Source: an uncultured Methanomicrobiales archaeon
GTDB taxonomy: Archaea > Halobacteriota > Methanomicrobia > Methanomicrobiales > Methanospirillaceae
Length of the DNA: 64,000 bases
Assembly (NCBI GenBank): GCA_963758915.1
Contig: CAVWXH010000003.1
Location: 352,001-416,000 of the forward strand
Direction of reading: 5' to 3'
The notes under the pieces are model-generated. The model saw only the letters and a program-made list of their open reading frames with translations. It had not been told where the DNA came from and did not search any database. The position numbers and the translations under genes are program-made. The first letter of the stretch is position 1; the number at the start of each line of letters is the position of its first letter. Shown one piece after another: positions 40,365 through 58,630 of this stretch.

Positions 40365-41186
40365 TCAGAGTAGCCTTGCCCCTGACTGGTAGGTCATGGT
40401 CTTGGTGAATGAATTGATGTACCCATTTGCTGTGGATTTTTCTTCGCCCGAGAGATCTGACGCCTTTGTCAGGCTGCTGCCACTTCCACCCTGCAGATGC
40501 AGTTTCATGTACGCTGCGACAAGCCCGTAACCCGGAATAGTCCCGCTTGCGGTATTAACGCCGTGAGCATTGATGCTGTAGGCTAATGCCACCGGTATGT
40601 CCTGGGTTGCAACGACTGTCCGGCTGGATGCCTGGGTTGAGAGCGAGATAATGTTACTGTCAACGTGGCTCCCGGCCTGCGCAATATTACAGTATGCAGG
40701 GAGTGTGCTGGTGCTGGACGGTCCGAACGGACAGAGGAACTGGCCCGCAGCTGATGTCGGCATGCCTACCGTATTAATAAGCAAGCTCTCATCAGAGACC
40801 ATGTTTCCGCCATTAAGCCCCTCAAATGTTATCTGACGTAATGATTCGACATTACTCTGGGCGATGTTCTTGTTCCCGGTATCGAGGCTGAAGTCCTTTA
40901 CATACACGGTGTGCCCGTTCATCGCATTAGTGTTTTCAGAGTATACGGTGGTCTGGACAACTTCACTGTCGGATAACGGGGGGTTGTCCTGCATTGATCC
41001 GCTGCTGGAAGTCCATGCAAGATCAACTACGTTACTCGCAGACCCAACGACATCGATATACGTGGTCGTTGTGATACCCTGGATTTCAGGTGTCTGGTTC
41101 ACGCCATCTGCTGATACGCTGATGCTGAGCGCTACGAGCACCAGGAATACAGATAGAATCCAAATTATTCCTTTTCCAATTTCCAT
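40365..41186 (-). CDS. Secreted beta-rich protein, sheath-protein (MspA/SH)-like family, lacking the central inserted domain
   Basis: Collinear with 52794-53936: PEIQGI, DTGNK..QSN, GGNMVS.E, LCPF, PAYCNIAQAG, YQSG..LL. Confidence 0.75.
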   Translation of the reverse strand: MEIGKGIIWILSVFLVLVALSISVSADGVNQTPEIQGITTTTYIDVVGSASNVVDLAWTSSSGSMQDNPPLSDSEVVQTTVYSENTNAMNGHTVYVKDFSLDTGNKNIAQSNVESLRQITFEGLNGGNMVSDESLLINTVGMPTSAAGQFLCPFGPSSTSTLPAYCNIAQAGSHVDSNIISLSTQASSRTVVATQDIPVALAYSINAHGVNTASGTIPGYGLVAAYMKLHLQGGSGSSLTKASDLSGEEKSTANGYINSFTKTMTYQSGARLL

Positions 41187-45198: not shown

Positions 45199-46062
45199 CT
45201 ACAACCCGCCCTCGGGTTTCGGCATCTTTGGGAGCATGTACCGGAGGTACCAGAAGACAAGCCCGAGAACGATGCTTATGAGCACCACATACCAGCCGAA
45301 CTCGCCGAGCATCGCCCCCCCGGCCCCGGTTGTTGCTGTTAACACGGGGTAGAATTCCTGGGTGAAGTAGTTATCGAACCCATGAAGGAGGACTGCCGGC
45401 CAGATGCTCCCGGACCGGAGCCGGATCCATGCAAAGAGGGTGGAGCCGCCAATCATGGCGAGGAAGAACATGACCATCGAGTACCCAAGGCCGCCTGCTC
45501 CGGAATATCCCCCGGCGAGCATGACCGGAACGTGCCAGCAAAACCAGATGAATGCGGAGATGATCGCAATCCAGGTAAACGTGGTGAACCTGCCGAGCTC
45601 GGGGACAAGCAGCCCCCGCCACCCGAGCTCCTCGCCCGTTGCCGATACGAGACTGTAGCCAATCGCAATCACGATTCCCTGCAGGAACGGCAGCGCAAGC
45701 ATGGCTGCCGCCTTGTCCGGCAGGAACGGCGCAATGCCGGAAACCCACGCGGTGCCGAACATCACGAGCCCGACCGCAATGGGGATGACGATCGCAAGGA
45801 GCCACCACCGGAGCTCGCCGATCTTAAACCCGAATCCCTCAAGGTTACCCTGGAAGGCGAGACGGGTCACGATAGCCGCAACCGCGGGACACCACATGAG
45901 GAGAAACACCGAGTTTCTGAGTATGCCGGTATCTATTGCAAACTGCGGTTTTGCTGCGATGATGTACCAGAAGATCGACGAAAGTGCGAAAACGAGCACG
46001 AGGTAGGCTGCAACAACATGTTTCGGGTTGGTCAGCCGGGGTGCATCTGCCGGTTCTGCCAT
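45199..46062 (-). CDS. CPBP (CAAX/Abi) intramembrane metalloprotease
   Basis: GEELGWRG, WFCWH, SIWPAVLLHG..N. Confidence 0.92.
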   Translation of the reverse strand: MAEPADAPRLTNPKHVVAAYLVLVFALSSIFWYIIAAKPQFAIDTGILRNSVFLLMWCPAVAAIVTRLAFQGNLEGFGFKIGELRWWLLAIVIPIAVGLVMFGTAWVSGIAPFLPDKAAAMLALPFLQGIVIAIGYSLVSATGEELGWRGLLVPELGRFTTFTWIAIISAFIWFCWHVPVMLAGGYSGAGGLGYSMVMFFLAMIGGSTLFAWIRLRSGSIWPAVLLHGFDNYFTQEFYPVLTATTGAGGAMLGEFGWYVVLISIVLGLVFWYLRYMLPKMPKPEGGL

Positions 46063-46162
46063 ATCATGAGCTGGGTAGCCGGACGCTATTACGGTATTGG
46101 TTTTATTAGAATCCGGACCCTGAAACAGTCCCCCGTCAACAAAACCTCCATGCGGTCATTTT

Positions 46163-46628
46163 TTGCTCCCGCGTATTCGTGACGCTGCCTTTGACAACAC
46201 AAGCCGGGTGCATTCTTCCGGGCCAAAACTCTACGAAGAGAGCATGATGCTCAATTCGGCCGGTGCTGCTGCTTCCGGTGTAACCTGTGGCGCAGAATCA
46301 CCCGATGCAGAGGGTGCGAACTTCACCGCTACGCCCTACTGCGAGACGGTGATCACGAGATCACTGTTCATGGCTGACGACCTGGCGTATCGATCGGTTG
46401 GATCTATTAACCAGGCAGATCTGGAGGTCCCGGACACGTTTACCTTCACGGCAATAGGTTCAGGTGCGGGAATGGGATCGATGAGCTTCGGTTCGGGGAG
46501 TCTGTCGGGAATTGGTACTACGAGTGAGCCCGGTTATATGAACTGCTATCGGTAAGGACCTCATGGCCAGCGGCCGGTTCAACATCGGTGAGGACGTGCG
46601 GTGGACGTCGTTCTCGAAGACCGATTGA
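46163..46628 (+). pseudogene. 5'-truncated, frameshifted fragment of a secreted beta-rich protein, possibly a distant sheath-family member
   Basis: LYEESMMLNSAG..TCG..PYCE parallels SENLMIDGAG..LCPF..PAYCN; shifted tail DLMASGRFNIGEDVRWTSFSKTD*. Confidence 0.5.
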
Positions 46629-46707
46629 TAGGGGGGAATAAACCCGGATTTTTATACCAGCTCTCTTTTTTTGGAGTAGTGCTGAATATCTACCAAAGTG
46701 AACGATA

Positions 46708-46888
46708 ATGGCCGAAAAAAAGAAATGCGAGTACCTGTGAAAAAGACGCCATCGGGTACCAGGGATACGGGTGTTGCGCTGCCTATGTATGCCTGGACCA
46801 TGCCGACAGGTTTGTTCTTGACCTTAAACCCGGGGAAAAACTGATATCCGGCGAATGTTACTTCGAGCGGTTCGATAACCCGGATTAA
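46708..46888 (+). CDS. Small Cys-rich protein with a +1 frameshift near 46735
   Basis: Removing one C gives MAEKKKCEYCEKDAIGYQGYGCCAAYVCLDHA...GECYFERFDNPD*. Confidence 0.65.
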
Positions 46889-46980
46889 ACCGTATTACAA
46901 TAATCACCGGTATTGCTGCGATATGGGCATATAATTCAAAAGAGTATACATTTTTAACCGTTGGGAGATACTGACTCACC

Positions 46981-47448
46981 ATGAAGAACTACCTGGTACT
47001 TCCTGTCACTGTTGCCCTTGTCGCGGCAATAGTGGCTGGCTGTATCAGTCCGGTAAAACAGGAACAGTCCATCGTTACGCCGACGCATACCCCGCAAGTG
47101 TCTGCGACTACCGCACTACCAACCCCTGGAACCGTTATTACTCCGGCAGATCCCCACGAACCGATAATTGGTACCTGGCGATACAACGATTCATCCGGTA
47201 TTGACGATCGGTATGAGTTTGATTCACATTTTCGCTATAAAGAAAGTGTATATTCACCGAGAGCACAACGGACGCAGGTACAATATGGGTCCTGGTACCC
47301 TAATTCCTACAATTCATACGAACTAAGTTCTACCTATTACGGAATCCACACGATATTACTCTACGACCGGGAAAAAGATGTCATTTACGATACGAAATAT
47401 CCATCGGCACTCTTTTCCCGCTACCAGGGAGGTGCAGTTCCGAAATAG
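46981..47448 (+). CDS. Hypothetical lipoprotein
   Basis: Lipobox VAGC; Thr/Pro linker; PIIGTW beta-barrel-like domain. Confidence 0.82.
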   Translation: MKNYLVLPVTVALVAAIVAGCISPVKQEQSIVTPTHTPQVSATTALPTPGTVITPADPHEPIIGTWRYNDSSGIDDRYEFDSHFRYKESVYSPRAQRTQVQYGSWYPNSYNSYELSSTYYGIHTILLYDREKDVIYDTKYPSALFSRYQGGAVPK

Positions 47449-47544
47449 CCAATGGACACAATTTCTGATTTTCTAAATAATCAAATTACCCGGACACCCT
47501 TGTAAGGTCTTGGATTGTTGCGATTTGATGATTGCATAATAACA

Positions 47545-47631
47545 GATATATTTATTTGATCAATATAACTCAAAGGCAGATTATCGGGGGGTACTTTAGA
47601 GCATCCTCCTATATCTAACGGAGTGAGTGAT
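47545..47631 (+). promoter_or_regulatory. Conserved promoter/5' leader of the sheath-like paralogs (also ~48830-48911, ~50860-50948, ~52710-52793)
   Basis: AT-rich TATA-like box, then attat-ggggggtac..gcatcctcc..cggagtgagtgat-TTG/ATG in all four copies, more diverged in copy C. Confidence 0.7.
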
Positions 47632-48721
47632 TTGAAGCTTAGTAAATTAGGGGTTATTACGCTCTTATTATTCGGAATGGTCATTGCATTGACCGGTATC
47701 GTGTGCGCAGATCAGCCGGTCCCGGCAGTACCGGAAACACAAACTCTTGTCGACGGTAACTACTGCGGATGTTGTCGGACTCGCCATGGAGACTGATGCG
47801 GGGGCATGGACGTTGACGAATGATCCCTGGGTCACGGTATACCATACACTGTCCACCCGGCTGGGTCACGAAACACCTGATGCTTAGCTAATGCAGATCG
47901 ACGATTATAATGCCGGAGGATTAATCGCGGCTAGGCGGAAGGCTCATCAATGAGGTATTCAAATTATTATTCCATCAATCGCTGCTAAACGTTGCAACAG
48001 TTGCATGATCCAGACTCGTATACATGGGGGGATTTTGTCTCTAATCTTGTAGGACTGGGAGTCGACCCGACTTATTTACGGTGAAGGCATCCACACAGGC
48101 GCCCTCGACCCCGGGCAGGTCCAGTACACCACCGCCTATGACGCAGATATCGTCGCACAGGCAGGACACACCGTATTCACAAAAAGCATGAACATCGACA
48201 CCCGGAACAAGGTCATTTCCCAGTCCAACCTGGATGCAAAGACCGGATTAACCTTTGCTGCAACCGCTGACGGGGGAAATGTGGTCGGTTCAGAGAACAT
48301 CATGATCGACGGTGCAGGCATACTACCACCGCAGCAAGTGACCGGATGCTCTGTCCGTTCTCAGCCTACCCCGTCGATATAATTCCGGCATACTGTAACA
48401 TCGTCCAGGCTGGCAGCAAGTACGACCTGACGATTGGATCGGTGACAACCAATGCGAACGACCCGGTTCGTCGGCACTGATGCAACCAACCCGGTTGTCC
48501 TGAACTATGATATCAGTGTCAAACCATACGGCACGTCACAGGGACAGATCCTGGCAAGCGGCTCGGCAATGGCTTACATCAAAGCACACATCCAGGAAGC
48601 CCGGGTAAACGGAACAGCAAAGGCTGAAGACATGGTATACAATGAGCAGTCAAGTGCACAGGGTACCATCACCGCCTTCACCAAGGTGATCGCGTACCAG
48701 TCAGGCAAGTCATTGCTCTGA
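47632..48721 (+). pseudogene. Sheath-protein-like paralog A (several frameshifts, possibly read errors)
   Basis: TTG-KLSKLGVITLLLFGMV..ADQPVPAVPETQT; MNIDTRNK; FTKVIAYQSGKSLL*; indels near 47750, 48318, 48450. Confidence 0.8.
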
Positions 48722-48911
48722 TTTATACTCTCAAAAAATACTTTTTTTTAGCAGATTCTTTAAGGAGAGAACAAGATAAGGTACCATGTTAAAAGCAGGT
48801 ATTGTTGCGATACAACAATTCCGATAAAAGATACTTTTATTATCCGACAACTAAAAGGCAGATTATTTGGGGGGTACTTAATGCATCCTCCTGTTATACG
48901 GAGTGAACGAT

Positions 48912-49766
48912 ATGAAGCATAGTAAATTTGGGGTTATTACGCTCTTATTATTCGGAATGGTCATTGTATTGACCGGTATCGTGTGCGCAGATCAGCCAGT
49001 CCCGGCTAGTTCCGGAAACACAGGTGCTAGCGACGGTAACAACTGCGGATGTTGTCGGACTCGCCATGGAGACTGATGCAGGGGATGGACGATGACGAAC
49101 AGCGGGGAAATATGATACCGTGAGTGGAACAGCGGCCTGTGTTAGAAATTTTAACGTGATGAAAGGCAAGTACTCGGCGAAGTTAATTGCACTCGTCAAC
49201 TCGACCGGAATTATGAGTAGTCTTGCAGTGCCAAATTGATGCTGAATCAGGAGTTTAGGATTGAAGACAAGCAGGTTATTCAAGTGCAGAGGTCTGACCA
49301 AATGATGCATTAGACTATAGCAAAGGGATCGCAATGAGGCATCAGTATGCGAAGTCCACTATACAACCGCATATGATGCAAATATAGTTGCACAGGGTGG
49401 ACATACTGATTACAAGAGATGAAATCGAACCGGAACAAGGTGATTTCACAGTCCAACCTGATGCAAAGACGCTTAACCTTCGCTGCAACTGCTGACGGGG
49501 TAATGTGTCGGATCAGAAAACCTGATGATTGACGGTGCAGGTAATCACACCAGCATCAGAAGATGCTCTGTCCATTTAGTAGCCGTGATGTATTCTGTAT
49601 TGAAATGTAGGAAGAGATGATGAATGTTAGTAAAATGAAATGAAGTTATAGTTCTGATGAAAATGGTCTGAATAATATAGTGTAAAATACGACTTACAAA
49701 ATGAAGGTGAATGGATATAAAGAAATAGAAGGTTATAAAACAGTCTACAAGCAATCACTCCTGTGA
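48912..49766 (+). pseudogene. Sheath-protein-like paralog B, heavily degenerate
   Basis: ATG-KHSKFGVITLLL..ADQPVP; remnants tatacaaccgcatatgatgcaaatatagttgcacag, gaaaacctgatgattgacggtgca, atgctctgtccattt, aatcactcctgtga. Confidence 0.75.
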
Positions 49767-49948
49767 GAAAAACACCTGCAATTCTATTTTTTAACGATTC
49801 AATCAAAAGGAGAAATGAATACCCGGCACCCTTAGTATTACGAAAAGGATCCTAAAAACCTTACATTGCCCCTAAAAAGAGACGGTAAGTTAAGGCGAAT
49901 AGCCTCCTTTATTTGTTTATCCGTTATTAGACAGGGTTGTCACAAAGG

Positions 49949-50362
49949 ATGATGGAAGAGATAGTAATTGCACCATGCGGGATGAACTGTGCACTATGCA
50001 TGGCATATCTTCGGGATAACAATAAATGTCCTGGTTGCAGGGAAGAGAGTCTGAATAAATCAAAAAGTCGCTCAAATTGTATGATTAAAAACTGTGACGA
50101 ATTAAAAAATAACAATTATAACTACTGTTTTTCATGTGCACAATTTCCCTGTGCCAGAATAAAACATCTGGATAAACGATATCGCACAAAATACCTGATG
50201 AGTATGATTGAAAATCTTGAACATATCAATAAATCGGGCATTCGGGATTTTATCGAAAATGAACAGGTAAGATGGACTTGTTCTGAATGTGGAGGCACTA
50301 TCTGCGTGCATCAAGGGTATTGCTATTCCTGCGGTACAAAGAAACAGGTGCTCGGTTTATAG
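49949..50362 (+). CDS. DUF3795 Cys-rich protein
   Basis: IAPCGMNCALC, CPGCR, CFSCAQFPC, WTCSECGG..C...CYSCG. Confidence 0.9.
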   Translation: MMEEIVIAPCGMNCALCMAYLRDNNKCPGCREESLNKSKSRSNCMIKNCDELKNNNYNYCFSCAQFPCARIKHLDKRYRTKYLMSMIENLEHINKSGIRDFIENEQVRWTCSECGGTICVHQGYCYSCGTKKQVLGL

Positions 50363-50420
50363 GGTAAATAACCTGGTTGAACCAATGAAAAAGACCACGG
50401 GAGAGGGCTGGAAACATCAC

Positions 50421-50789
50421 ATGAAACGATATTCTCATTGTTGTCTGCTGGTAATCCTGCTGATGGTTACTATCACGGTGTCTGCGGGTTGCATCTCGAA
50501 CACATCGTCGTATGATTTTACCATGAAACGGGTTGTTGCGGTAGAAAAAGGCGGGTACTTTGAAGATATTCCCATGAGGCTTGATTTAAAAGGGAATAAT
50601 ATTGCCTGTGTATACGAAAAAAATCAGCCATCCGGTTCGGAAAAGTGTGGGACCTATACCATTACGGGTAACGAATTACGCTTTGACATACCAGGTAACC
50701 AGATGTACGGAGGGTATATTCTTGAAAACGGAGATATTTCGTTACTGGACTGGAGTACGCAGGAATATATCGTCATGAAAAAAGTCTGA
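50421..50789 (+). CDS. Hypothetical lipoprotein
   Basis: MKRYSH..SAGC lipobox; GTYTITGNEL. Confidence 0.75.
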   Translation: MKRYSHCCLLVILLMVTITVSAGCISNTSSYDFTMKRVVAVEKGGYFEDIPMRLDLKGNNIACVYEKNQPSGSEKCGTYTITGNELRFDIPGNQMYGGYILENGDISLLDWSTQEYIVMKKV

Positions 50790-50948
50790 AAAACAGCCAG
50801 GGATTATCCGGCTGTATGGTTAGGTCTTCCGGGATTGTTTTGATACAGTTGCATAAATAGAGATATATTTATTAATCAATATGACCCAAAAGTCAAATTA
50901 CTGGGGGCTGTTTTTTGGGTATCCTCCACATCTGACGGAGTGAGTGAT

Positions 50949-51830
50949 TTGAAGATTAGTAAATTCGGGGTTATTGCGCTCTTACTATTCGGAATGGTCA
51001 TTGTATTGACTGGTATCGTGTGCGCAGATCAGCCGGTCCCGGCAGTCCCGGAGACACAAACGCTTTCGACGACAACGACTGCGGATGTTGTCGGGATTAC
51101 CATGGAAACCGATGCCGGGGCATGGACGACCACATCCAGCGGGCAGGCAATGTACATACTCACAATGCCCGCAGGTGGAGCACCTGCCCCCTTCACTCAG
51201 GGTATGTTAAACCAGTTAGTGGCTGGTGGAGGTCACTATATACTTTATCCCGGACTGACGCCCCCATGGGTAACAAGCGTATCCATTCCCCAATCTCTGT
51301 TAAATCAACAGATTGTTGATAATCCTTCGGGAACAACATGGCAGGATCTGGTTGAACTCTATGAAGTTATTGGATGGAGTGAGGCCTTCGCCAAAGGTGG
51401 ATTACATACCGGAGCATTGGACCCGGGCGAAGTCCGTTACACCACCGCCTATGATGCAAATATCGTCGCACAGGCAGGACACACCGTATTGACAAAAAGT
51501 ATGAACATCGACACCCGGAACAAGGTCATTGCGCAGTCCAACCTGAATGCAAAGACCGGACTTAACCTTTGCTGCAACCGCTGACGGCGGTAACGTCGTT
51601 GGTTCAGAAAACCTCATGATCGACGGTGCAGGTAACTGGACTACACCAGCATCAGATCGTATGCTCTGTCCGTTCTCCGCATACCCGGTCGATGTAATTC
51701 CGGCGTACTGCAACATCGTCCAGGCGGCAGCAAGTATGACCTGACCATGGATCAGTGACCACCAATGCAAACGATCGGTTCGTCGGGAGTGAGCAACCAA
51801 CCCGTGTCCTGAAGTATGCGATCAATGTCA
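50949..51830 (+). pseudogene. Sheath-protein-like paralog C (frameshift ~51562, interrupted at ~51830)
   Basis: ORFs 50940-51584 and 51547-51744 are collinear with 52794-53936. Confidence 0.8.
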
Positions 51831-52115
51831 AGTTACGTTGCAGATCGAGCGGAACCTGGAAATAAAAGGGGGTCATTGCTGACCTCATGGCTCCTTTCCC
51901 TGGGCCCGGTCAAGGGGCACTGTACTATGTTGATGAGGACAGGGTTATAGGATGGGACCCGATCACCCTCCAAAAATAGTGTATTTTTGAGTATTCAGAG
52001 GAGCGATTTCCCTGACGGGTACGCGATCACCTTGGTGAAGGCGGTTATGGTTCCCTGTGCACTTGACTGCTCGTAATAGACTAAGTCCTCATCCTTTGCC
52101 GTTCCGTTCACCCGG
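51830..52115 (-). other. Inverted fragment: 3' end of a sheath-like paralog plus downstream flank
   Basis: Reverse complement reads gggtgaacggaacggcaaagg..aaggtgatcgcgtac..aaatcgctcctctga, then matches 53937-54100. Confidence 0.88.
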
Positions 52116-52117
52116 GG

Positions 52118-52601
52118 TTGCAAAGACCGGATTAACCTTTGCTGCAACCTCCGATGGGGGCAATGTCGTGGGATCAGAGAACATCATGATTGACGGTGCA
52201 GGAACAAACACAACTGCATCCGATCGGATGCTCTGTCGTTTTCAGCATACCCAGTCGATATAATTCCTGCATACTGTAACATCGTCCAGGCTGGAAGTAA
52301 GTACGACCTGACGATTGGATCGGTGACAACCAATGCGAACACCCGGTTCGTCGGCACTGATGCAACCAACCCGGTTGTCCTGAACTACGATATAAGCGTC
52401 AAGCCATACGGCACGTCACAGGGACAGATCCTGGCAAGCGGCTCTGCAATGGCATACCTCAAAGCACACATCCAGGAAGCCCGTGGAAACGGAACGGCAA
52501 AGGCTGAAGACCTGGTATACAATGAGCAGTCAAGTGCACAGGGTACGATAACGGCCTTCACCAAGGTGATTGCGTACCAGTCAGGGAAGGCACTGCTCTG
52601 A
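52118..52601 (+). pseudogene. Sheath-protein-like 3' half (fragment D), re-duplicating 51548-51830
   Basis: AKTGLTFAATSDGGNVVGSENIMIDGAG ... FTKVIAYQSGKALL*. Confidence 0.8.
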
Positions 52602-52793
52602 TTTTATACTCTCAAAAAATACTTTTTTCGCGATTTTTTAAAGGGGAAACGAAATCCGGCCCCATTCTTGAAAGTCAGGTATTGTAACGAAACCGCGATC
52701 CTGATAGAGAAACCTTTATTGTCCGACACTCCCAAAAGCCAAATTATTTGGGGGGTACTGAATGCATCCTCCAATTCTAACGGAGTGAGTGAT

Positions 52794-53936
52794 TTGAAGC
52801 TTGGTAAACTAGGGGTTATTACGCTCTTATTATTCGGAATGGTCATTGGATTAACAGGTATCATGTGCGCAGACCAGCCGGTACCGGCAGTCCCGGAGAC
52901 ACAAACGCTAGGGACAGTAACTACTGCGGATGTTGTCGGAATTGCCATGGAAACTGATGCTGGGGCATGGACATTGACGAACAGCGGTGAAACGATGTAT
53001 ACCGTGACTGCGACTTCGACTAGTGATGTGGTAAAAATCCTTAATGATGATGAAATAACTCAGCTCCTCGCTGCGGGAGGAAGTGTTATCCTCGTACCGG
53101 GATCCGATCGCACCGCTAGTATTTCAGTGCCAGAATCGCTTTTAAACCAGCTTTTGGTTGGTAGTAGTTGGCAGACTTGGGCATATATTCTTGCCATAGC
53201 AGTCAGTGATGGAGGTTATGTATTGACAACTGCCCCGGGTGGGATCCATAACGGGGTCCTGAGTCCCGCCCAGATCCAGTACACCACCGCGTATGATGCC
53301 AATATTGTGGCACAAGCGGGGCACACAGTCCTTACTAAGAGCATGAACATCAACACGGGTAACAAGGTGCTCACCCAGTCCAACCTGAAAGCCCAGACTG
53401 GATTAACCTATATTGCTACTTCCGATGGAGGTAATGTAGTCGGTTCAGAAAACCTGATGATTGACGGTGCGGGAAATACAACCAAGGCATCTGATCGGAT
53501 GCTCTGTCCATTTAGTTCCCAGCCGGTTGATGTCATCCCTGCCTATTGCAATATTATCCAGACCGGCAATACATACGACCTGACAGTCGGATCTGTTACC
53601 TCAACGATGAGCGAGCGTTTTGTCAGCTCCGATGCCACCAACCCGGTGCAGCTTGACCAGGTATTCAATGTTAAGCCATACGGTACCACCGAAAGGGCAA
53701 TTCCGGCGATGGGTGCAACATCTGTGTACATTAAAGCCCATTTCCAGGAAGCACGAAATTACAACAATATAACCGTGGTCGTGCTTCCTGATGGTAGTCC
53801 TGGAGCAACTTTTGCAATCCCCGGCACACCGCTTAAGAGCGAAGACCTCACCTACTCTGAAACATCAAGTGCACAGGGTACCATTCTGGCCTTTACCAAG
53901 GTTATAGCGTACCAGTCTGGGAAATCACTCCTCTGA
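52794..53936 (+). CDS. Intact sheath-protein (MspA/SH)-like secreted protein, paralog E (380 aa)
   Basis: Signal peptide; ADQPVPAVPETQ; QYTTAYDANIVAQAGHT; SENLMIDGAG; MLCPF..IPAYCNI; KAHFQEAR; YQSGKSLL. TTG start inferred from the aligned ATG in copy B. Family name is from recollection of Methanospirillum sheath proteins, not a search. Confidence 0.75.
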   Translation: MKLGKLGVITLLLFGMVIGLTGIMCADQPVPAVPETQTLGTVTTADVVGIAMETDAGAWTLTNSGETMYTVTATSTSDVVKILNDDEITQLLAAGGSVILVPGSDRTASISVPESLLNQLLVGSSWQTWAYILAIAVSDGGYVLTTAPGGIHNGVLSPAQIQYTTAYDANIVAQAGHTVLTKSMNINTGNKVLTQSNLKAQTGLTYIATSDGGNVVGSENLMIDGAGNTTKASDRMLCPFSSQPVDVIPAYCNIIQTGNTYDLTVGSVTSTMSERFVSSDATNPVQLDQVFNVKPYGTTERAIPAMGATSVYIKAHFQEARNYNNITVVVLPDGSPGATFAIPGTPLKSEDLTYSETSSAQGTILAFTKVIAYQSGKSLL

Positions 53937-54045
53937 ATCACTCAAGAATGCACTATTTTTTTTAGGGTGGCTTTGCTCCATCCTATAACCTTGTCCTCAT
54001 CAACATAGTACATGCCCCTTCACCGGGGCCAGGGAAAGGAGCCAT

Positions 54046-54073
54046 GGGGTCAGCAATGACCCCCTTTTATTTT
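54046..54073 (+). terminator. Hairpin GGGGTCA-GCAA-TGACCCC followed by a T-rich tract
   Basis: Perfect 7-bp stem, GNRA loop, then cttttattttc. Confidence 0.55.
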
Positions 54074-54324
54074 CAGGTTCCGCTGGATCTGCAACGTAAT
54101 GATTGCATACTGGAATGAATTTTTTTACCACCAGAACAGATACACCGTAGTTCCCCGGTCATATCGGACTCGAAGGAAAGATCCTCTGCCAGGAGGCAAA
54201 CTGTGCAGCCGCCTACCCGGTGCCGGAAAACGGCAATGCAGCCCGGGCATGTTCGTTCATTGACAAGGCATTTTTAAAGGGTCCAGGTGTAAACCTCCGT
54301 TGAGTGTCTGGGGATAGTTAAACC

Positions 54325-54368
54325 CAACCGGGGTCGCCACAGCGGCGGGCCATGAGCCCCGGGAGCGT
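54325..54368 (+). repeat. 44-bp structured repeat, partial copy of the MITE interior (second copy 55627-55670)
   Basis: caaccggggtcgcca(c/a)agcggcgggccatgagccccgggagcgt, 1 mismatch. Confidence 0.9.
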
Positions 54369-54580
54369 TGGAAAATTAAGGAATAGTCCGAAACCGGTAA
54401 GAGCATAGAAGAGGATTTCCCATGTAAATGCCTGAACGGACACCAATATGAAGAGATTTTGAATGTGGCATTTTCATTGTTCGGGTGTGGAAGTCCCGTT
54501 CATGTGTGTTTCTACAGAATAAAAAACCGGTTTGCTGGATGGTCTGATATGGTATGGTAACCTTAAAAGAGTTCGATTTT

Positions 54581-55201
54581 TCAATGTTTTCTTTTATCCC
54601 CCTTAATTCGCCCGAGTTTAACGAGTGTCATATTTTTGTTATGTAATATATCTGAATTATTTGGATCCAACAGAAGTCCTTTCTCATACGATACAAGCGC
54701 TTCCTGATAATTCCCCTCTTTGAATAAATTATTTCCACTCTCTTTGCAGGAAATGGCTTCTGTTTTACATTCTTCTGAGATCCTGCTTTTTGGTACAATA
54801 AAATTACGGCGTCCTATTTGAAGAAGGGCAAGTTCCAGGGCCCTGGCAAGTTTTTTCGGCGACGCGTTTTTTTCCCCTTCAATGGTGTATACCGAACGGT
54901 TGGATGGCGTGAACCATGAAATAATAATGATATTTTCACCACCCGTTATCCGGGCCATTTGTGTTATTAAATCCAGGGAGTGCAGTCCTCCCGTTTCAAT
55001 GTCGACGATAAAATCAATGTAAAATGCGTCGGCAGCTGCCTGAGTCGGGTTGAGAATAATGTTATGACCCGCACACGACGATGTTGTGCAAATACCGGGT
55101 AAGGAGTTGAAGACATTTACCAGGAGTTTTATCCTGGGCTCAACCCCCTCTCTGGCGCATTCATCCTTCGCTTTTTTCTTCATGGAGTTGAATGATCGCA
55201 T
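54581..55201 (-). CDS. Hypothetical protein: TYW3-like N-terminal motif plus C-terminal TPR
   Basis: EPRIKLLVNVFNSLPGICTTSSCAGH; KESGNNLFKEGNYQEALVSYEKGLLLDPNN. Confidence 0.75.
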   Translation of the reverse strand: MRSFNSMKKKAKDECAREGVEPRIKLLVNVFNSLPGICTTSSCAGHNIILNPTQAAADAFYIDFIVDIETGGLHSLDLITQMARITGGENIIIISWFTPSNRSVYTIEGEKNASPKKLARALELALLQIGRRNFIVPKSRISEECKTEAISCKESGNNLFKEGNYQEALVSYEKGLLLDPNNSDILHNKNMTLVKLGRIKGDKRKH

Positions 55202-55465
55202 GTGGTCATCACCTGTTTACAGGTATACTTAGATTCCTTCTTAACTGCTGCGATGGTTTGGAGAACCTGGTGCAATCACCTGCCTGTGGCATGATACAGA
55301 GATAAAAAGAATGAGGATGGTATTCTGAACCCGGAATGTCTTTTTTCACTTCTCTGGTTCATACTGAAAATCTGTCGGGGTATGAACCACCGGAGGGTGA
55401 AAACCCTTATCCCTGGTGTTTTTTCTTCAAGATATTCGAAATAATTGCGGTTTTCCCAATATTTC

Positions 55466-55728
55466 GGCTTTGTTGAAACTTTTTCGGTGTCATAACAAAT
55501 AAGAGGGAAATACGAAGACAGGAGGGGTTTCACCCCCTCCCTGCCCGACCCCCATTGAGATATTCTTCGGGCAGGGTTTCCCGAAGGCTCATTAAAATTC
55601 AGAGTATTGGGGGAGGGTCTCTATCTCAACCGGGGTCGCCAAAGCGGCGGGCCATGAGCCCCGGGAGCGTGATGAAATTATGGAATTCCCAATCTTCAAA
55701 ATAGATTTGAGAGGATTTGTACAGAGCC
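55466..55728. mobile_element. 263-bp MITE with IS5-family-like terminal inverted repeats and 8-bp target-site duplication
   Basis: Left end GGCTTTGTTGAAA, right end TTTGTACAGAGCC; AATATTTC at 55458-55465 and 55729-55736; no ORF; internal hairpins. Confidence 0.82.
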
Positions 55729-56109
55729 AATATTTCGACTCATATCGGGAAGGGGGTCCTTACAAAAATATTTTTAAAATCATGTATGCTCTAATTGCCA
55801 AAATAACGCTGAAATAGTAAACCGAGCTGAAATAGTAAACCGGGCCTTCATCCGCGATGTACGACACAGATGTTCAAATCACCATTGTTCTGTTGGATCT
55901 TCAGGGAGCAGGAACTGGCACGAACAGGAGTCTTCGGAATAACAAAAAACCCGGAGCGGGTGTGAGATAACTTCACAGGCTGTCGCCGTATAGTTCGCGT
56001 TTTTTCTGCTCACTTCCATGAACCCACACCATTCCAACAACTCCGTTCTGGCACAATGCAAAACAGGCAGATTGATTAGACTGGCTGTGTAAAAATCCAA
56101 CAGAGAGCC

Positions 56110-57052
56110 ATGCGGTCGTTTGTTCTCCCGGTACGGTATTTCCTGTTCCTGCTCCTGATCATGGTGGCGATGGTCCTTGCAGAATTCTTCGCTACGGCAA
56201 CGGCCTCCGAGAGGCTCATTCTTGTCGTAACCAGCCCGTTTGCCAATACAATATTCGGAAAAATCTTTAATACTCTTTTTTTTGCGATTTTAATTCTCAT
56301 TTGTTACACAGCCGGGGCGTATTTCATCGTCAGGAAAATGCCGGATGAAGCATCCCGTTTCACAGCCACCAGGATTTTTACGGTACTACTGCTTGGCCTT
56401 GGCCTGTTGCTTGTCCTCATGGAATGGGTGGAAGACCCTTCACAGATCGTGCTTTTCCTTGGCATCATATGGGCTGCCATGGTTGTTGCACTCCGTGATC
56501 TCATACAGAACATGGTCGGGAGCCTGACCCTCCTTGTTACCCGGATGTACCGGATCGGGGACAGGATACAGATCAAGGGAGTATATGGACTTGTTATGGA
56601 TATCGGGTTCTTCAGGACGACCATGATGCAGCTGGACAGGGAGTCCGGTGACCATCCGAGCGGGCAGATTGTGACCGTCCCGAACGGTATTCTGTTCCGG
56701 GAGGTGGTCATGAATACCAGCCGTGACCTCTCTGTTGCAGGGGACGAGATACGGATCACCCTGCCCTTTTCTGCCGATTTACCCCATGCCCGGGCAGTCC
56801 TTCTCGAGGTAGTCCACCGGCATACCCGTGAGATCCAGGTGCAGGCAGCAAAGGAAATCGAGCAGCCTCGGGGATAAAAAATTCCTGCCCTCGTACGAGA
56901 CGAGCCCGGGTGTCTACCTTCATATCGACGATTACCAGGTCCTCATGGTACTGAAGTATTTCACGTCATCCACCAGGCGGTCTGAGATCAAGGGCCTGAT
57001 TATCGAAGAAATATCCCGTCTTATCCCGGAGATTACGAAAATTGACCAGTAG
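56110..57052 (+). CDS. MscS mechanosensitive channel (+1 frameshift near 56867)
   Basis: YRIGDRIQI..G.VMDIGFFRTT; GQIVTVPNG; C-terminus continues in ORF 56828-57052. Confidence 0.85.
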
Positions 57053-57195: not shown

Positions 57196-58630
57196 ATGTC
57201 AGCGAAACAATTTCTCCTCATCATCATTATCGGAATTGCCATGATCCTTGCTGCGGGATGCACCCAGCCTGCTGTTCAGCATCAAAAGGCACAGGAAACC
57301 CCACTTGTGACGGTGACCGTTCAGGTCCCGCCGCTCACCGGCACTGATGCGGCGATATCCCGGAAACTCGATGCCTATATGACAGCGCTTACCGACGCCG
57401 GGAGGTTCAGCGGGACGGTACTGGTGGCACGGGGCGATACCGTGATCCTCTCGAAAGGGTACGGCATGGCGAACTACGAGTTCTCCATCCCCAATACACC
57501 CGGGACCGTATTCCCTGTCGGCTCGAATACCAAGCAGCTTACCGCGGCCGCCATTATGAAGCTGCAGGAGCAGGGGAAGCTGAATGTCACCGACCCGGTC
57601 ACGATGGTATATCCCCAATGCCACGAAATGGGAGGAGATCCGGATCTATCACCTGCTGAACCACACCGCGGGGATCCCGTCTGACGGGGCGTTCTCCCTC
57701 ACCGACCGGGCAGATCTTACACTCCCCGAAACAATGGAACGGATAACCGCCCTGCCCCTCGCCTTTGAACCGGGATCGGGTTACACGTATTCCAATAACG
57801 GGTATATCGCGCTGAGTTACATCATTGAGCAGGCTTCGGGCATGTCGTACGATGAGTACCTGAAAACGGACATCTTCCGGCCAATCGGCATGAACAGCAC
57901 CGGGCAGGACAATGCCCGGGATGTCTTTCCCAGCCGTGCGTCCGGGTACACCACCATGAACGGAAAACAGGTCCACTACGACCTCCAGAACATCCATAAC
58001 TCCTGGGGCGCCGGGTCCATCCATTCCACGACCGGAGACATGTTCCGGTGGGTGCGTGCCTTCCATACGCCGGGAACGATCCTTTCTCCGCAGTCAACCG
58101 CTGCCATGGTGGAACACCATTACGGGATTGAGAGCGGGAAATTGAAGAACCGCACCTTCATCGGCTTTAGCGGGCGTAACTTCGGGTTCATCTCGCAGAC
58201 ACTGTATTATCCTGACGAGGACGTGAGCATCATGTTCCTGACAAACCATGACAGGACCCCGGTGCTGACCCTGGTAAACGACCTCCCGGCGATAGTCTTT
58301 AATGGGACGTATTCCCAGCCGCAGAAGATCAACCGGAGCGTGGTGCCGCTGAACGCAGGAGCACTCGTGGAATACACCGGGACGTATGCACCGGCATGGG
58401 AGAAATCATGGACGATCACCGTATATAGTGAAGGCAACCGCCTGTTTTACGATGCGGTCATGCCCGGCGATAAGAAGGTCGAACTCTTCTCCGAGGGCAA
58501 TGATACGTTCTTCGTGACACCGGAGTCGGACGATGCATACATATTCACCCGTAACGCAGCCGGAAAGGTCAACGGACTGAAGATGTATACCATGGAAGGC
58601 TCGTATGACGAGTCAGAAAAGGTGTCGTGA
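57196..58630 (+). CDS. Serine hydrolase (class C beta-lactamase family) lipoprotein, +1 frameshift near 57606
   Basis: Lipobox AAGC; GSNTK (SxxK), LLNHTAG, YSN. Confidence 0.88.

What the first reader, a model, noticed from the sequence alone, without database searches (positions are those of the whole stretch)
47545..53936. Tandem array of amyloid-sheath-like genes with conserved core and hypervariable cap: candidate surface-variation system
Seen: four gene starts (47632, 48912, 50949, 52794) plus two 3' fragments. Signal peptide, N-terminal strands and the C-terminal core are highly similar at DNA level (A and D nearly identical, E more diverged, B degraded). The ~90-aa segment between GAW and GIH.G.L.P (about 47810-48085, 49090-49330, 51130-51400, 52975-53245) differs strongly, keeping only MY, L.AGG, S.P.SLLN and TW in C and E. 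Upstream regions pair A with C and B with E, and each pair follows an unrelated lipoprotein gene, implying a duplicated two-gene unit. Known, from recall: the Methanospirillum sheath is built from MspA/SH, an amyloid-like ring-forming domain with an outward cap domain. Inference: a repertoire of interchangeable sheath subunits that diversifies the exposed surface (virus evasion or partner recognition) by differential expression or recombination through the conserved flanks, analogous to pilin/S-layer cassette variation. I know of no such description for archaeal sheaths.
Basis: partly seen in the sequence, partly recalled or inferred. Interest (0 to 1): 0.85.

Follow-up and report, generated by a model that had tools for sequence, protein, structure and literature searches.

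The report
Sheath-protein gene array, mosaic caps
This is a cluster of duplicated genes for the probable building block of an archaeal cell sheath, a known kind of cluster, in which the outward-facing cap has a different evolutionary history from the conserved core, and only one copy is unbroken here.

Summary
Gene starts lie at 47632, 48912, 50949 and 52794. There is a 5'-truncated copy at 52120-52601 and an inverted 3' fragment at 52111-51998. The 5' ends and cores are conserved and the ~88-residue caps cannot be aligned.

B is decayed and C and D are truncated. A, C and D also carry 1-bp frameshifts that may be assembly errors.

The family matches no protein-family library or solved structure. 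Its architecture, two invariant cysteines, distribution across genomes and copy numbers fit the published SH sheath proteins of Methanoregulaceae. I rate membership about 0.8.

What appears new is mosaicism:
- E and its nearest homologue have cap dS 0.18 but core dS 1.62, against a genome baseline of 0.10-0.13.
- There are two cap classes, with differing predicted secondary structure. Class II needs at least 6 changes on the core tree, and an AU test rejects a single origin (p 0.007).

Recombination among paralogues explains this. A programmed switching system is not supported.

The parts
40365..41186 (-). Intact small-cap paralogue of the same family (273 aa). It has a signal peptide, a cap of about 15 residues, the FLCPF...PAYCNI cysteine pair and a YQSGARLL end.
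   Evidence: tblastn; HMM hits; translation.
46981..47448 (+). Small lipoprotein-like ORF (155 aa, ...VAGC...) upstream of copy A. It is unique in the genome.
   Evidence: ORF; no Pfam family; no similarity to the ORF upstream of C, and a single genome copy.
47502..47631 (+). Conserved upstream region of copy A, with a TTTATT box, leader and GGAGTGA. It is shared with B, C, E and relatives.
   Evidence: blastn; alignment A3.
47632..48721 (+). Copy A. Full length, with its own cap. In this assembly it is interrupted by frameshifts near 47750, 48322 and 48464 and a stop at 47885.
   Evidence: Frameshift-aware alignment; HMM pieces. Contigs of run X2 lack one base at 48460. Differences from an intact homologue by codon position are 9/4/40.
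48912..49600 (+). Copy B. A decayed pseudogene with an ATG start, about 12 frameshifts and 8 stops. Similarity is lost after about 49600.
49937..50362 (+). Cysteine-rich DUF3795 ORF (141 aa) between B and C. Not part of the family.
   Evidence: Pfam PF12675, E 5.3e-9.
50421..50789 (+). Second small lipoprotein-like ORF (122 aa from this ATG, ...SAGC...) upstream of copy C.
50949..51832 (+). Copy C. It has the signal peptide, a class I cap and part of the core. There are five 1-bp frameshifts between 51565 and 51806, and it is cut off at 51832 by the inverted segment. Its cap is 94% identical at protein level to that of an intact gene in another MAG (P0055/L007).
51833..52119 (-). Inverted remnant. 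It holds the last ~38 codons of a family gene (52111-51998) and its downstream DNA (51997-51833), which is 87% identical to the reverse complement of 53865-54099.
52120..52601 (+). Fragment D. It is the 3' 160 codons of a copy, 91.3% identical to A, with a frameshift at 52236. In another assembly a 98%-identical stretch is part of a longer chimeric gene (P0031).
   Evidence: A contig of run X1 is identical over 185 nt except for an extra C at 52236, which restores the frame.
52644..52793 (+). Upstream region of E, with TTTATT box, leader and GGAGTGA.
   Evidence: Alignment A3.
52794..53936 (+). Copy E. The only uninterrupted gene of the array (380 aa). Layout: signal peptide 1-26, N-terminal strand 27-62, class I cap 63-150 (52980-53243), core 151-320 with C238 and C252, second variable loop 321-347, C-terminal strands 348-380.
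   Evidence: Contigs of an RNA library (X16) cover 53098-53559 with 0-1 mismatches; this is a weak hint of expression only.
53865..54099 (+). 3' end and downstream DNA of E. It is the partner of the inverted segment 51833-52066.

Best explanation
The locus is a tandem cluster of paralogous genes for the probable subunit of an archaeal tubular sheath (SH-type protein). The host is an uncultured Methanomicrobiales archaeon whose closest relatives are labelled Methanoregulaceae.

Gene layout. Each gene has its own promoter-like box, ribosome-binding site and Sec-type signal peptide. The mature protein starts with a long beta strand. A cap domain of about 88 residues is inserted next. Then comes a conserved beta-rich core with two invariant cysteines. 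By analogy with Methanospirillum SH, the core would polymerise edge to edge into rings, the cysteines would link rings, and the cap would face outward. Those three points are inferred, not shown.

Origin of the pattern. The conserved-flank, variable-cap pattern is produced by homologous recombination or gene conversion among paralogues through the conserved 5' end and core. The caps are too unlike to recombine, so they persist as discrete modules that end up on different cores. The mosaic itself is shown. The mechanism is inferred from it.

State of the array. The cluster turns over by duplication, inversion, truncation and decay. In this assembly only E is intact.

Purpose. Why caps are diverse (virus or partner interaction, or different structural roles in a mixed sheath) is inferred and not shown.
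For: Family and architecture:
- The AlphaFold2 model of E (64-sequence alignment, mean pLDDT 76.3) has a helix at 5-24 and long strands at 38-62, 161-187, 198-209, 214-227, 253-275, 286-294, 305-320, 348-364 and 367-374. It also has a compact alpha/beta insert at 63-150 with block pLDDT 71-96.
- C238 lies in a low-confidence loop and C252 one residue before a strand. Both are invariant in alignment A1 (64 sequences) and in the wider A2 (27 sequences).
- M. hungatei SH is described as 40.6 kDa, with a signal peptide, a cap, two six-stranded sheets and two cysteines, one on a sheet and one on a linker loop (Cys257) (PMC10593813, passages).
- Profile searches of 151 genomes of the order found the family in 14 of 29 other genomes of the window's family. 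It was in 0 of 12 genomes of genus g4 and in 1 of 121 genomes of the other five families. Arrays hold many copies of 260-330 aa.
- That pattern matches the published SH census: Methanolinea 5-27 copies, UBA9949 7-31, UBA467 14, Methanoregula 0 (table S1).

Mosaicism:
- E against its nearest homologue L001a, which lies in a different genomic context: dS is 0.18 in the signal peptide, 1.49 in the N-terminal strand, 0.18 in the cap, 1.62 in the core and 0.56 in the C-terminal part.
- Nucleotide identity is 95-97% in the 3' half of the cap and 52-80% in the core.
- Two flanking genes shared by the two genomes give dS 0.13 and 0.10.
- On the core tree of 118 rows, class II needs 6 changes, 5 of them forced by starred branches. 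None of 500 label shuffles was as low.
- An AU test rejects a single origin of class II (p 0.0069, delta lnL 200.8).
- Over 7021 protein pairs, cap and core identities correlate at only r = 0.32. In 35 pairs the core is at least 88% identical while the cap is at most 40% identical.
- The class II cap is modelled as all-helical (pLDDT 72-88) and the class I cap as alpha/beta.
- Third-position identity in the first 26 codons is 85-92% between E and all other copies, against 35-59% in the core. This points to homogenised 5' ends.

Turnover:
- The syntenic array of a close relative (L010; downstream flanks 94-95% identical) has a different set of copies.
- The chimeric gene P0031 sits beside a 99%-identical E in another assembly.
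Against: - Profiles A1 and A2 did not reach the other five families of the order searched: 1 of 121 genomes matched, and Methanospirillaceae, if sampled, would be among them (the family codes cannot be matched to names).
- The sheet topology of the model could not be inspected.
- The mosaic signal for E rests on one homologue pair with DNA in hand.
- The core tree is a quick LG+G4 tree with several long branches.
- The class II model is poor outside its cap (mean pLDDT 42.8).
- Conserved synonymous sites at the 5' end could reflect selection on the mRNA leader instead of gene conversion.
- Whether A, C and D are really broken is uncertain.
Confidence: 0.7

Rival explanations
1. Programmed surface variation of the pilE/pilS or vlsE type. 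E would be the expression locus, and A-D would be silent or pseudogene donors whose caps are copied into E through the conserved flanks, changing the sheath surface within a population.
For: - One intact gene sits beside four broken or partial copies that share conserved 5' and 3' segments.
- Mosaicism is shown.
- Short contigs from other public runs diverge from the window at the cap border of A (loose end at 47821) and join distant points of the array: 47516>50861, 48709>49755 and 50385>54111 on opposite strands.
Against: - A, B and C keep the promoter-like box, GGAGTGA and start codon, so they are not promoterless cassettes.
- None of the 22 neighbouring ORFs scanned against Pfam is a recombinase, invertase or reverse transcriptase.
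- E's core is only about 70% identical to A, C and D, so no recent transfer from them into E is visible.
- A related array has 6 of 8 copies in a single frame.
- Several of the frame breaks may be artefacts.
- The joints come from short, low-depth metagenome contigs that may belong to other strains or paralogues.
Confidence: 0.1
2. The copies are not alternatives but co-expressed subunits with different structural jobs in one mixed sheath (ring body, hoop junction, plug contact, adhesion). Cap diversity would then reflect division of labour, as Medvedeva et al. proposed for Methanothrix and Methanospirillum.
For: - The paper reports 2-3 SH paralogues with different caps as the most transcribed in cultured species, and AlphaFold models of mixed rings (PMC11576556, section 9).
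- This genome keeps intact copies with very different cap sizes. E is 380 aa, and the copy at window 40365-41186 is 273 aa with a cap of about 15 residues. Further single-frame copies lie on contigs C5 and C7.
- RNA-library contigs match both E and the cap of C.
Against: - Fixed structural roles would predict conserved orthologous sets. Instead, the syntenic array of a close relative holds different copies.
- Cap class is scattered over the core tree.
- Copy number and integrity vary widely between relatives.
- This rival is compatible with the best explanation. It concerns purpose, not origin.
Confidence: 0.3
3. The broken state of A, C and D is largely an assembly or consensus artefact of a long-read metagenome bin. 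On this reading the array really holds three or four intact, expressed genes.
For: - A contig of run X1 is identical to D over 185 nt except for one extra C at 52236, which restores the frame. Two contigs of X2 lack one base at 48460, next to A's frameshift.
- Single-base insertions relative to the close relative L010 also split two unrelated flanking genes: MscS-like at 56866 and beta-lactamase-like at 57604 (Pfam).
- Differences between A, D and C and their intact homologues sit mostly at third codon positions (9/4/40, 5/3/42 and 10/10/51). That pattern is expected for genes under selection, not for old pseudogenes with 1-5 indels.
- Same-genus genomes in few contigs have low completeness (7 contigs at 74%, 10 contigs at 83%), which I recall is typical of indel-rich long-read bins.
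Against: - ORFs of at least 150 aa cover 77% of the genome, so frame breaks are not frequent overall.
- The indels are not in long homopolymers.
- B's decay, C's truncation at 51832, D's missing 5' half and the inverted fragment are structural and cannot be 1-bp errors.
- Split copies also occur in three other assemblies (L004, L006, L010, and the chimeric P0031).
Confidence: 0.4
4. The family is not a sheath subunit but another secreted beta-rich envelope protein of Methanoregulaceae, such as an adhesin or an S-layer accessory protein.
For: - No sequence or structure library names it.
- Profiles do not reach Methanospirillum.
- All 120 listed homologues are unnamed or 'hypothetical protein'.
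Against: - Size, signal peptide, cap insertion point, the two cysteines, tandem arrays, copy numbers and presence or absence across genera all match the published SH census.
- The published family was defined by structure, not sequence, so a failed sequence link is expected.
Confidence: 0.15

Closest known systems
SH (sheath-forming) proteins of Methanomicrobiales, and their gene clusters (Wang et al. 2023, PMC10593813; Medvedeva, Borrel, Gribaldo 2024, PMC11576556)
   Same: - Secreted protein of about 40 kDa.
- Beta-rich core with a cap inserted near the N-terminus.
- Two cysteines, one in a loop.
- Many paralogues per genome, arranged in tandem clusters, with caps that differ between close relatives.
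- Present in Methanolinea-like genera and absent from the genus that fits Methanoregula.
   Different: - This is a 'large-cap' subfamily (360-460 aa) seen here only in uncultured MAGs, with two cap classes (alpha/beta and all-helical).
- No sequence link to Methanospirillum SH was obtained.
- The paper attributes duplication to raising sheath output. Its main text has 0 occurrences of recombination, conversion, shuffl, mosaic, paralog or pseudogene. The cap-core mosaicism and the broken copies shown here are not described there.
Cassette-type antigenic variation (Neisseria pilE/pilS, Borrelia vlsE, Campylobacter fetus sap); features recalled, not tested against sequences
   Same: - A polymerising surface protein with conserved assembly parts and a variable exposed part.
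- Several partial or broken copies next to one intact gene.
- Mosaic sequences produced by recombination through conserved segments.
   Different: - The broken copies have their own promoter-like signals and start codons.
- No dedicated recombination function lies nearby.
- No within-population switching is shown.
- The neighbours are not close donors of E's core.
Birth-and-death evolution with gene conversion in surface-protein families (general model; recalled)
   Same: Tandem duplication, decay of some copies, homogenised conserved segments, and retention of old divergent variable modules.
   Different: This is a description of process rather than a system. It has not, to my knowledge or in the searches, been reported for archaeal sheath genes.

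Membership tests
Archaeal SH sheath-forming protein | N-terminal secretion signal | tested here: met
   The sequence has a K-rich start, a hydrophobic stretch and ...IMCA|DQ. It is modelled as a helix at 5-24. A26 and D27 are (nearly) invariant in 64 sequences. No signal-peptide predictor was available.
Archaeal SH sheath-forming protein | Core of two beta-sheets of six antiparallel strands each | tested here: inconclusive
Archaeal SH sheath-forming protein | Variable cap domain inserted after the first strand(s) | tested here: met
   A compact insert at 63-150 has block pLDDT 71-96. Cap identity between paralogues is 5-47%, against 65-90% in the core.
Archaeal SH sheath-forming protein | Two cysteines in the mature protein, one on a sheet and one on a flexible linker | tested here: met
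   C238 lies in the low-confidence loop 238-243 and C252 one residue before strand 253-275. Both are invariant in A1 and A2. The M. hungatei description is.
Archaeal SH sheath-forming protein | Structural similarity to M. hungatei SH (WP_011449234.1), the criterion used in the publication | not testable with these tools
   The SH model is not in the PDB; only EMDB maps were deposited.
Archaeal SH sheath-forming protein | Distribution and copy number as in the published census | tested here: met
   The family was found in 14 of 29 other genomes of the same family, including 5 of 5, 5 of 5, 2 of 2, 1 of 1 and 1 of 1 in five genera, and in 0 of 12 in genus g4. Arrays hold up to 8 intact tandem copies. 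Table S1 gives Methanolinea 5-27, UBA9949 7-31, UBA467 14 and Methanoregula 0. Genus codes cannot be matched to names, so the fit is by pattern only.
Archaeal SH sheath-forming protein | Sequence or profile similarity to Methanospirillum SH | tested here: inconclusive
   Profiles A1 and A2 gave matches in 1 of 121 genomes of the other five families of the order, on a 2.8-kb contig. The published family spans lineages linked by structure, so this does not exclude membership.
Cassette-type antigenic variation system | Silent donor copies that lack expression signals, plus one expression site | tested here: not met
   A, B and C keep the TTTATT box, GGAGTGA and a start codon, aligned with those of E.
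Cassette-type antigenic variation system | Dedicated recombinase, invertase or recombination signal at the locus | tested here: not met
   22 ORFs between 33.6 and 63.1 kb were scanned against Pfam and none is a recombinase or transposase. The only inverted repeat is the 234-bp gene-end duplication.
Cassette-type antigenic variation system | Switching within a population | tested here: inconclusive
   Only short assembled contigs of other runs could be laid on the region. They show alternative joints and loose ends but cannot be assigned to one strain.
Diversity-generating retroelement target | Reverse transcriptase and a template repeat matching the variable region | tested here: not met
   No reverse transcriptase was found among the ORFs scanned. 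No second copy of any cap appears in the self-comparison of 39-55 kb. Caps differ in length and in predicted secondary structure, not only at adenines.

The most novel reading that the evidence does not exclude
The array is an archaeal counterpart of bacterial antigenic-variation loci. E would be the expressed sheath subunit, and the neighbouring partial or frame-broken copies would serve as a standing library. Their caps, or whole 5' halves, would be moved into expressed genes by gene conversion through the homogenised 5' end and the core. A lineage could then re-surface its sheath under virus or partner pressure. The near-orthologous cap on a non-orthologous core (dS 0.18 against 1.62) would be the footprint of such an event.
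Probability: 0.1. Interest if true: 0.85.

Novelty: new member of a known kind. Interest (0 to 1): 0.45.

Why it matters
The sheath is the outermost layer that viruses and syntrophic partners of these methanogens meet. How it diversifies is an open question.

The cluster itself is an ordinary example of a published kind. The data nevertheless give a concrete, testable picture of how sheath surfaces change. Cap modules with differing predicted secondary structure are reassorted onto a conserved polymerising core by recombination among paralogues. The arrays turn over quickly even between genomes whose flanking genes are 94-95% identical.

That supplies candidate breakpoints, cap classes and gene pairs for recombination tests, for proteomics of sheaths and for virus-host work. 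It also warns that counts of SH 'genes' in long-read MAGs may include many broken or mis-called copies.

Tried and rejected
- Family libraries. Pfam, NCBIfam and PHROGs scans of E gave no family.
- ESM Atlas: best feature score 0.77, no lead.
- Complex prediction with two copies of mature E returned 'no answer' (score 0.00). I do not use it as evidence either way.
- Short peptide motifs of the family were searched in the paper's four supplementary files, with 0 hits. Those files carry internal ids and lengths rather than matching sequences.
- Viral contigs. The scan with A1 gave 43 pattern matches, none confirmed.
- The wider profile A2 did not reach other families of the order.
- Earlier notes of this scan: none on this genome for 'sheath'.
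- Rfam on 46000-56500: no match.
- Laid contigs. Parts of the array had no cover, and the depth figures are not used. RNA-library contigs are treated as a hint only.
- A genome-wide count of frame-breaking indels against a same-genus genome was started. I dropped it because synteny is patchy and the relatives look error-prone themselves.
- My frameshift-aware aligner overcounts breaks inside caps when the reference has a different cap. For that reason only breaks in conserved parts are quoted. One run of it timed out.

Full report
**What is in the sequence**

A tblastn of the one long ORF (E, 52794-53936, 380 aa) against the window finds related coding DNA at several places:
- 47632-48718 (A)
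- 48912-~49600 (B)
- 50949-51853 (C)
- 52120-52598 (D)
- 52096-51998 on the minus strand
- 40976-40368 on the minus strand

A self-comparison of 39-55 kb and pairwise alignments give these DNA identities:
- First 189 nt: A-E 89.9%, B-E 86.1%, C-E 84.0%.
- Cores: A-D 91.3%, A-C 87.5%, A-E 69.6%.
- No match at all between caps.

The largest repeated unit is 48232-49126 against 52116-53010 (86% over 904 bp). It covers the 3' part of one copy, the spacer and the 5' part of the next. Segment 51833-52066 is the reverse complement of 53865-54099 at 87% identity.

An alignment of the 150 nt upstream of A, B, C and E and of three relatives shows an invariant TTTATT box about 75 nt before the start and GGAGTGA just before it.

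The two small lipoprotein-like ORFs upstream of A and C are unrelated to each other and unique in the genome.

Only E is an open frame.
- A frameshift-aware alignment to intact homologues and an HMM scan of stop-to-stop segments show A split into at least five pieces. Its frameshifts lie near 47750, 48322 and 48464, with a stop at 47885.
- B is riddled with about 12 frameshifts and 8 stops.
- C has five frameshifts between 51565 and 51806 and is cut off at 51832 where the inverted segment begins.
- D lacks its first ~220 codons and has a frameshift at 52236.

In the whole genome, tblastn finds 18 loci holding about 21 copies or fragments. By the open-frame columns, only about four or five are uninterrupted: E, C5:94220-95344, C7:21432-22280, window 40365-41186 and perhaps one more.

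**Are the breaks real?**

B's decay, the truncations of C and D and the inverted remnant are structural. The 1-bp frameshifts in A, C and D are doubtful, for four reasons.
- Differences from intact homologues sit at third codon positions: A 9/4/40, D 5/3/42, C 10/10/51 for positions 1/2/3. That is the signature of genes under selection until very recently.
- A contig of public run X1 is identical to D over 185 nt except for one extra C at 52236, which restores the frame. Two contigs of run X2 lack a base at 48460.
- Compared with the syntenic DNA of a close relative (L010), the window has single-base insertions that split two unrelated flanking genes: an MscS-like gene at 56866 and a beta-lactamase-like gene at 57604.
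- Same-genus genomes with very few contigs have low completeness. From recall, that is typical of indel-rich long-read bins.

Against a general error problem:
- ORFs of at least 150 aa cover 77% of the genome.
- The indels are not in long homopolymers.
- Split copies also occur in other assemblies.

I put about 0.4 on most of these 1-bp breaks being artefacts or strain polymorphisms.

**What the protein is**

E has no Pfam, NCBIfam or PHROG family and no solved relative by sequence or fold.

It has 256 homologues at E <= 0.001 among the 8000 candidates scored. The 120 listed are unnamed or 'hypothetical', and the one that carries an organism name is from a Methanoregulaceae MAG. The 29 loci found in species-representative genomes all come from MAGs labelled Methanomicrobiales or Methanoregulaceae.

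The 64-sequence alignment shows this layout:
- a conserved signal peptide and first strand;
- a hypervariable stretch of about 70-110 residues;
- a conserved core with invariant C238 and C252;
- a second variable loop at 321-347;
- a conserved C-terminus.

The AlphaFold2 model (mean pLDDT 76.3) has a signal helix, long beta strands throughout the conserved parts and a compact alpha/beta domain at 63-150.

This matches the description of Methanospirillum hungatei SH: 40.6 kDa, with a signal peptide, a cap, two six-stranded sheets and two cysteines, one on a flexible linker (PMC10593813, passages).

Profile searches of 151 genomes of the order find the family in 14 of 29 other genomes of the window's family. 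It is present in all sampled members of five genera and in none of 12 in a sixth. It appears in only 1 of 121 genomes of the other five families. Relatives carry arrays of up to eight intact tandem copies of 260-330 aa.

The published SH census (PMC11576556, table S1) has the same shape: Methanolinea 5-27 copies, UBA9949 7-31, UBA467 14, Methanoregula 0.

I could not superpose the model on an SH model, and the profiles did not reach other families. Membership is therefore probable (about 0.8), not proven.

**What is already known**

Medvedeva, Borrel and Gribaldo (2024) report the following (abstract, section 9 and found passages read):
- 643 SH homologues in 48 genomes, with 3-31 copies in Methanomicrobiales;
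- genes in clusters, with neighbours up to 100% identical;
- diverse cap domains 'even among closely related archaea';
- possible mixed rings;
- low transcription of most copies.

So a tandem array of SH genes with a conserved core and a variable cap is a known kind of locus.

Their main text has no occurrence of recombination, conversion, shuffl, mosaic, paralog or pseudogene. Three library searches found no other paper on this.

**Mosaicism**

The nearest homologue of E with DNA in hand is L001a. It comes from a genome whose flanking genes are 94-95% identical to the window's, with dS 0.13 and 0.10. L001a sits in a different genomic context: its flanks are unrelated beyond about 80 nt upstream and just past the stop.

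Nei-Gojobori dS along the pair:
- signal peptide 0.18
- first strand 1.49
- cap 0.18
- core 1.62
- C-terminal strands 0.56

Sliding nucleotide identity peaks at 95-97% in the 3' half of the cap and falls to 52-80% in the core. The cap is thus about as diverged as the genomes are, while the core is about ten times more diverged. One of the two genes has had its core, or its cap, replaced.

Family-wide evidence points the same way:
- Class I is modelled as alpha/beta. Class II is modelled as all-helical, with cap pLDDT 72-88, although the rest of that model is poor.
- On a tree of the non-cap columns (118 rows), class II needs 6 changes, 5 forced by well-supported branches. None of 500 label shuffles was as low.
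- An AU test rejects a single origin of class II (p 0.0069, delta lnL 200.8).
- Over 7021 protein pairs, cap and core identity correlate at r = 0.32. In 35 pairs the core is at least 88% identical and the cap at most 40%.
- Third-position identity in the first 26 codons is 85-92% between E and every other copy, against 35-59% in the core. With the conserved upstream DNA, this suggests a homogenised 5' anchor. Selection on the leader is an alternative.

**Turnover**

The syntenic array of the close relative (L010) ends at the same TPR gene but holds three other copies. Their cores resemble A and D (86-90%), not E (71%), and two of them are split.

In another assembly a 99%-identical E (P0001) shares a contig with P0031. 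P0031 is a chimeric gene with an A-like start, a class II cap, a D-like 3' part (98%) and then the start of another core.

**Mechanism and verdict**

The best reading is a sheath-subunit gene cluster evolving by duplication, decay and recombination among paralogues. The caps are unalignable and so behave as modules that get recombined onto different cores.

A programmed, pilin-like switching system is not supported:
- the broken copies keep their expression signals;
- no recombinase or reverse transcriptase is nearby;
- E's core is unlike its neighbours';
- a related array has 6 of 8 copies intact.

The short contigs from other runs show alternative joints but cannot be tied to one strain.

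The purpose of cap diversity remains inferred. It could be virus or partner interaction, or division of labour in a mixed sheath.

The locus is a new member of a known kind. The cap-core mosaicism is a modestly novel, testable observation.

Noticed in passing
window 55460-55730 (related piece 54323-54526): A dispersed repeat of about 260 bp with at least 25 copies on contig C3 alone. It is flanked here by 14-nt direct repeats (CCAATATTTCGGCT). Copies also lie next to family genes in relatives (L001, L012, L025). It has no Rfam match. It could be a MITE-like element that promotes rearrangement.
   Followed up: partly
window 56110-57052 and 57196-58630: An MscS-like gene and a beta-lactamase-family gene are each split by a single-base insertion (56866, 57604) relative to the 95%-identical DNA of a close relative, where the MscS-like gene is one 313-aa ORF.
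   Followed up: yes
   Followed up: partly
window 46163-46555: A 130-aa ORF with no Pfam family has three paralogues in the genome (C1, C2, C10). Homologous pieces flank a family gene in locus L005 of another MAG.
   Followed up: no
E residues 321-347 (window 53754-53834): A second variable loop sits near the C-terminus. It is present, absent or unalignable between paralogues (4-54% identity, apart from near-identical gene pairs) and is modelled as two short strands.
   Followed up: no
L030 (G131:C1:1147500-1158000): The family cluster of a complete same-family genome contains two transposase-like ORFs (unscanned), an N-terminally truncated copy and a copy with a frameshifted C-terminus. Broken copies inside such clusters are therefore not peculiar to this genome.
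   Followed up: no
genomes G151, G154, G156 (same genus): These assemblies of 5-10 contigs have only 74-87% completeness. That suggests frame-breaking indel errors in long-read bins of this genus, which bears on every gene count made from them.
   Followed up: no
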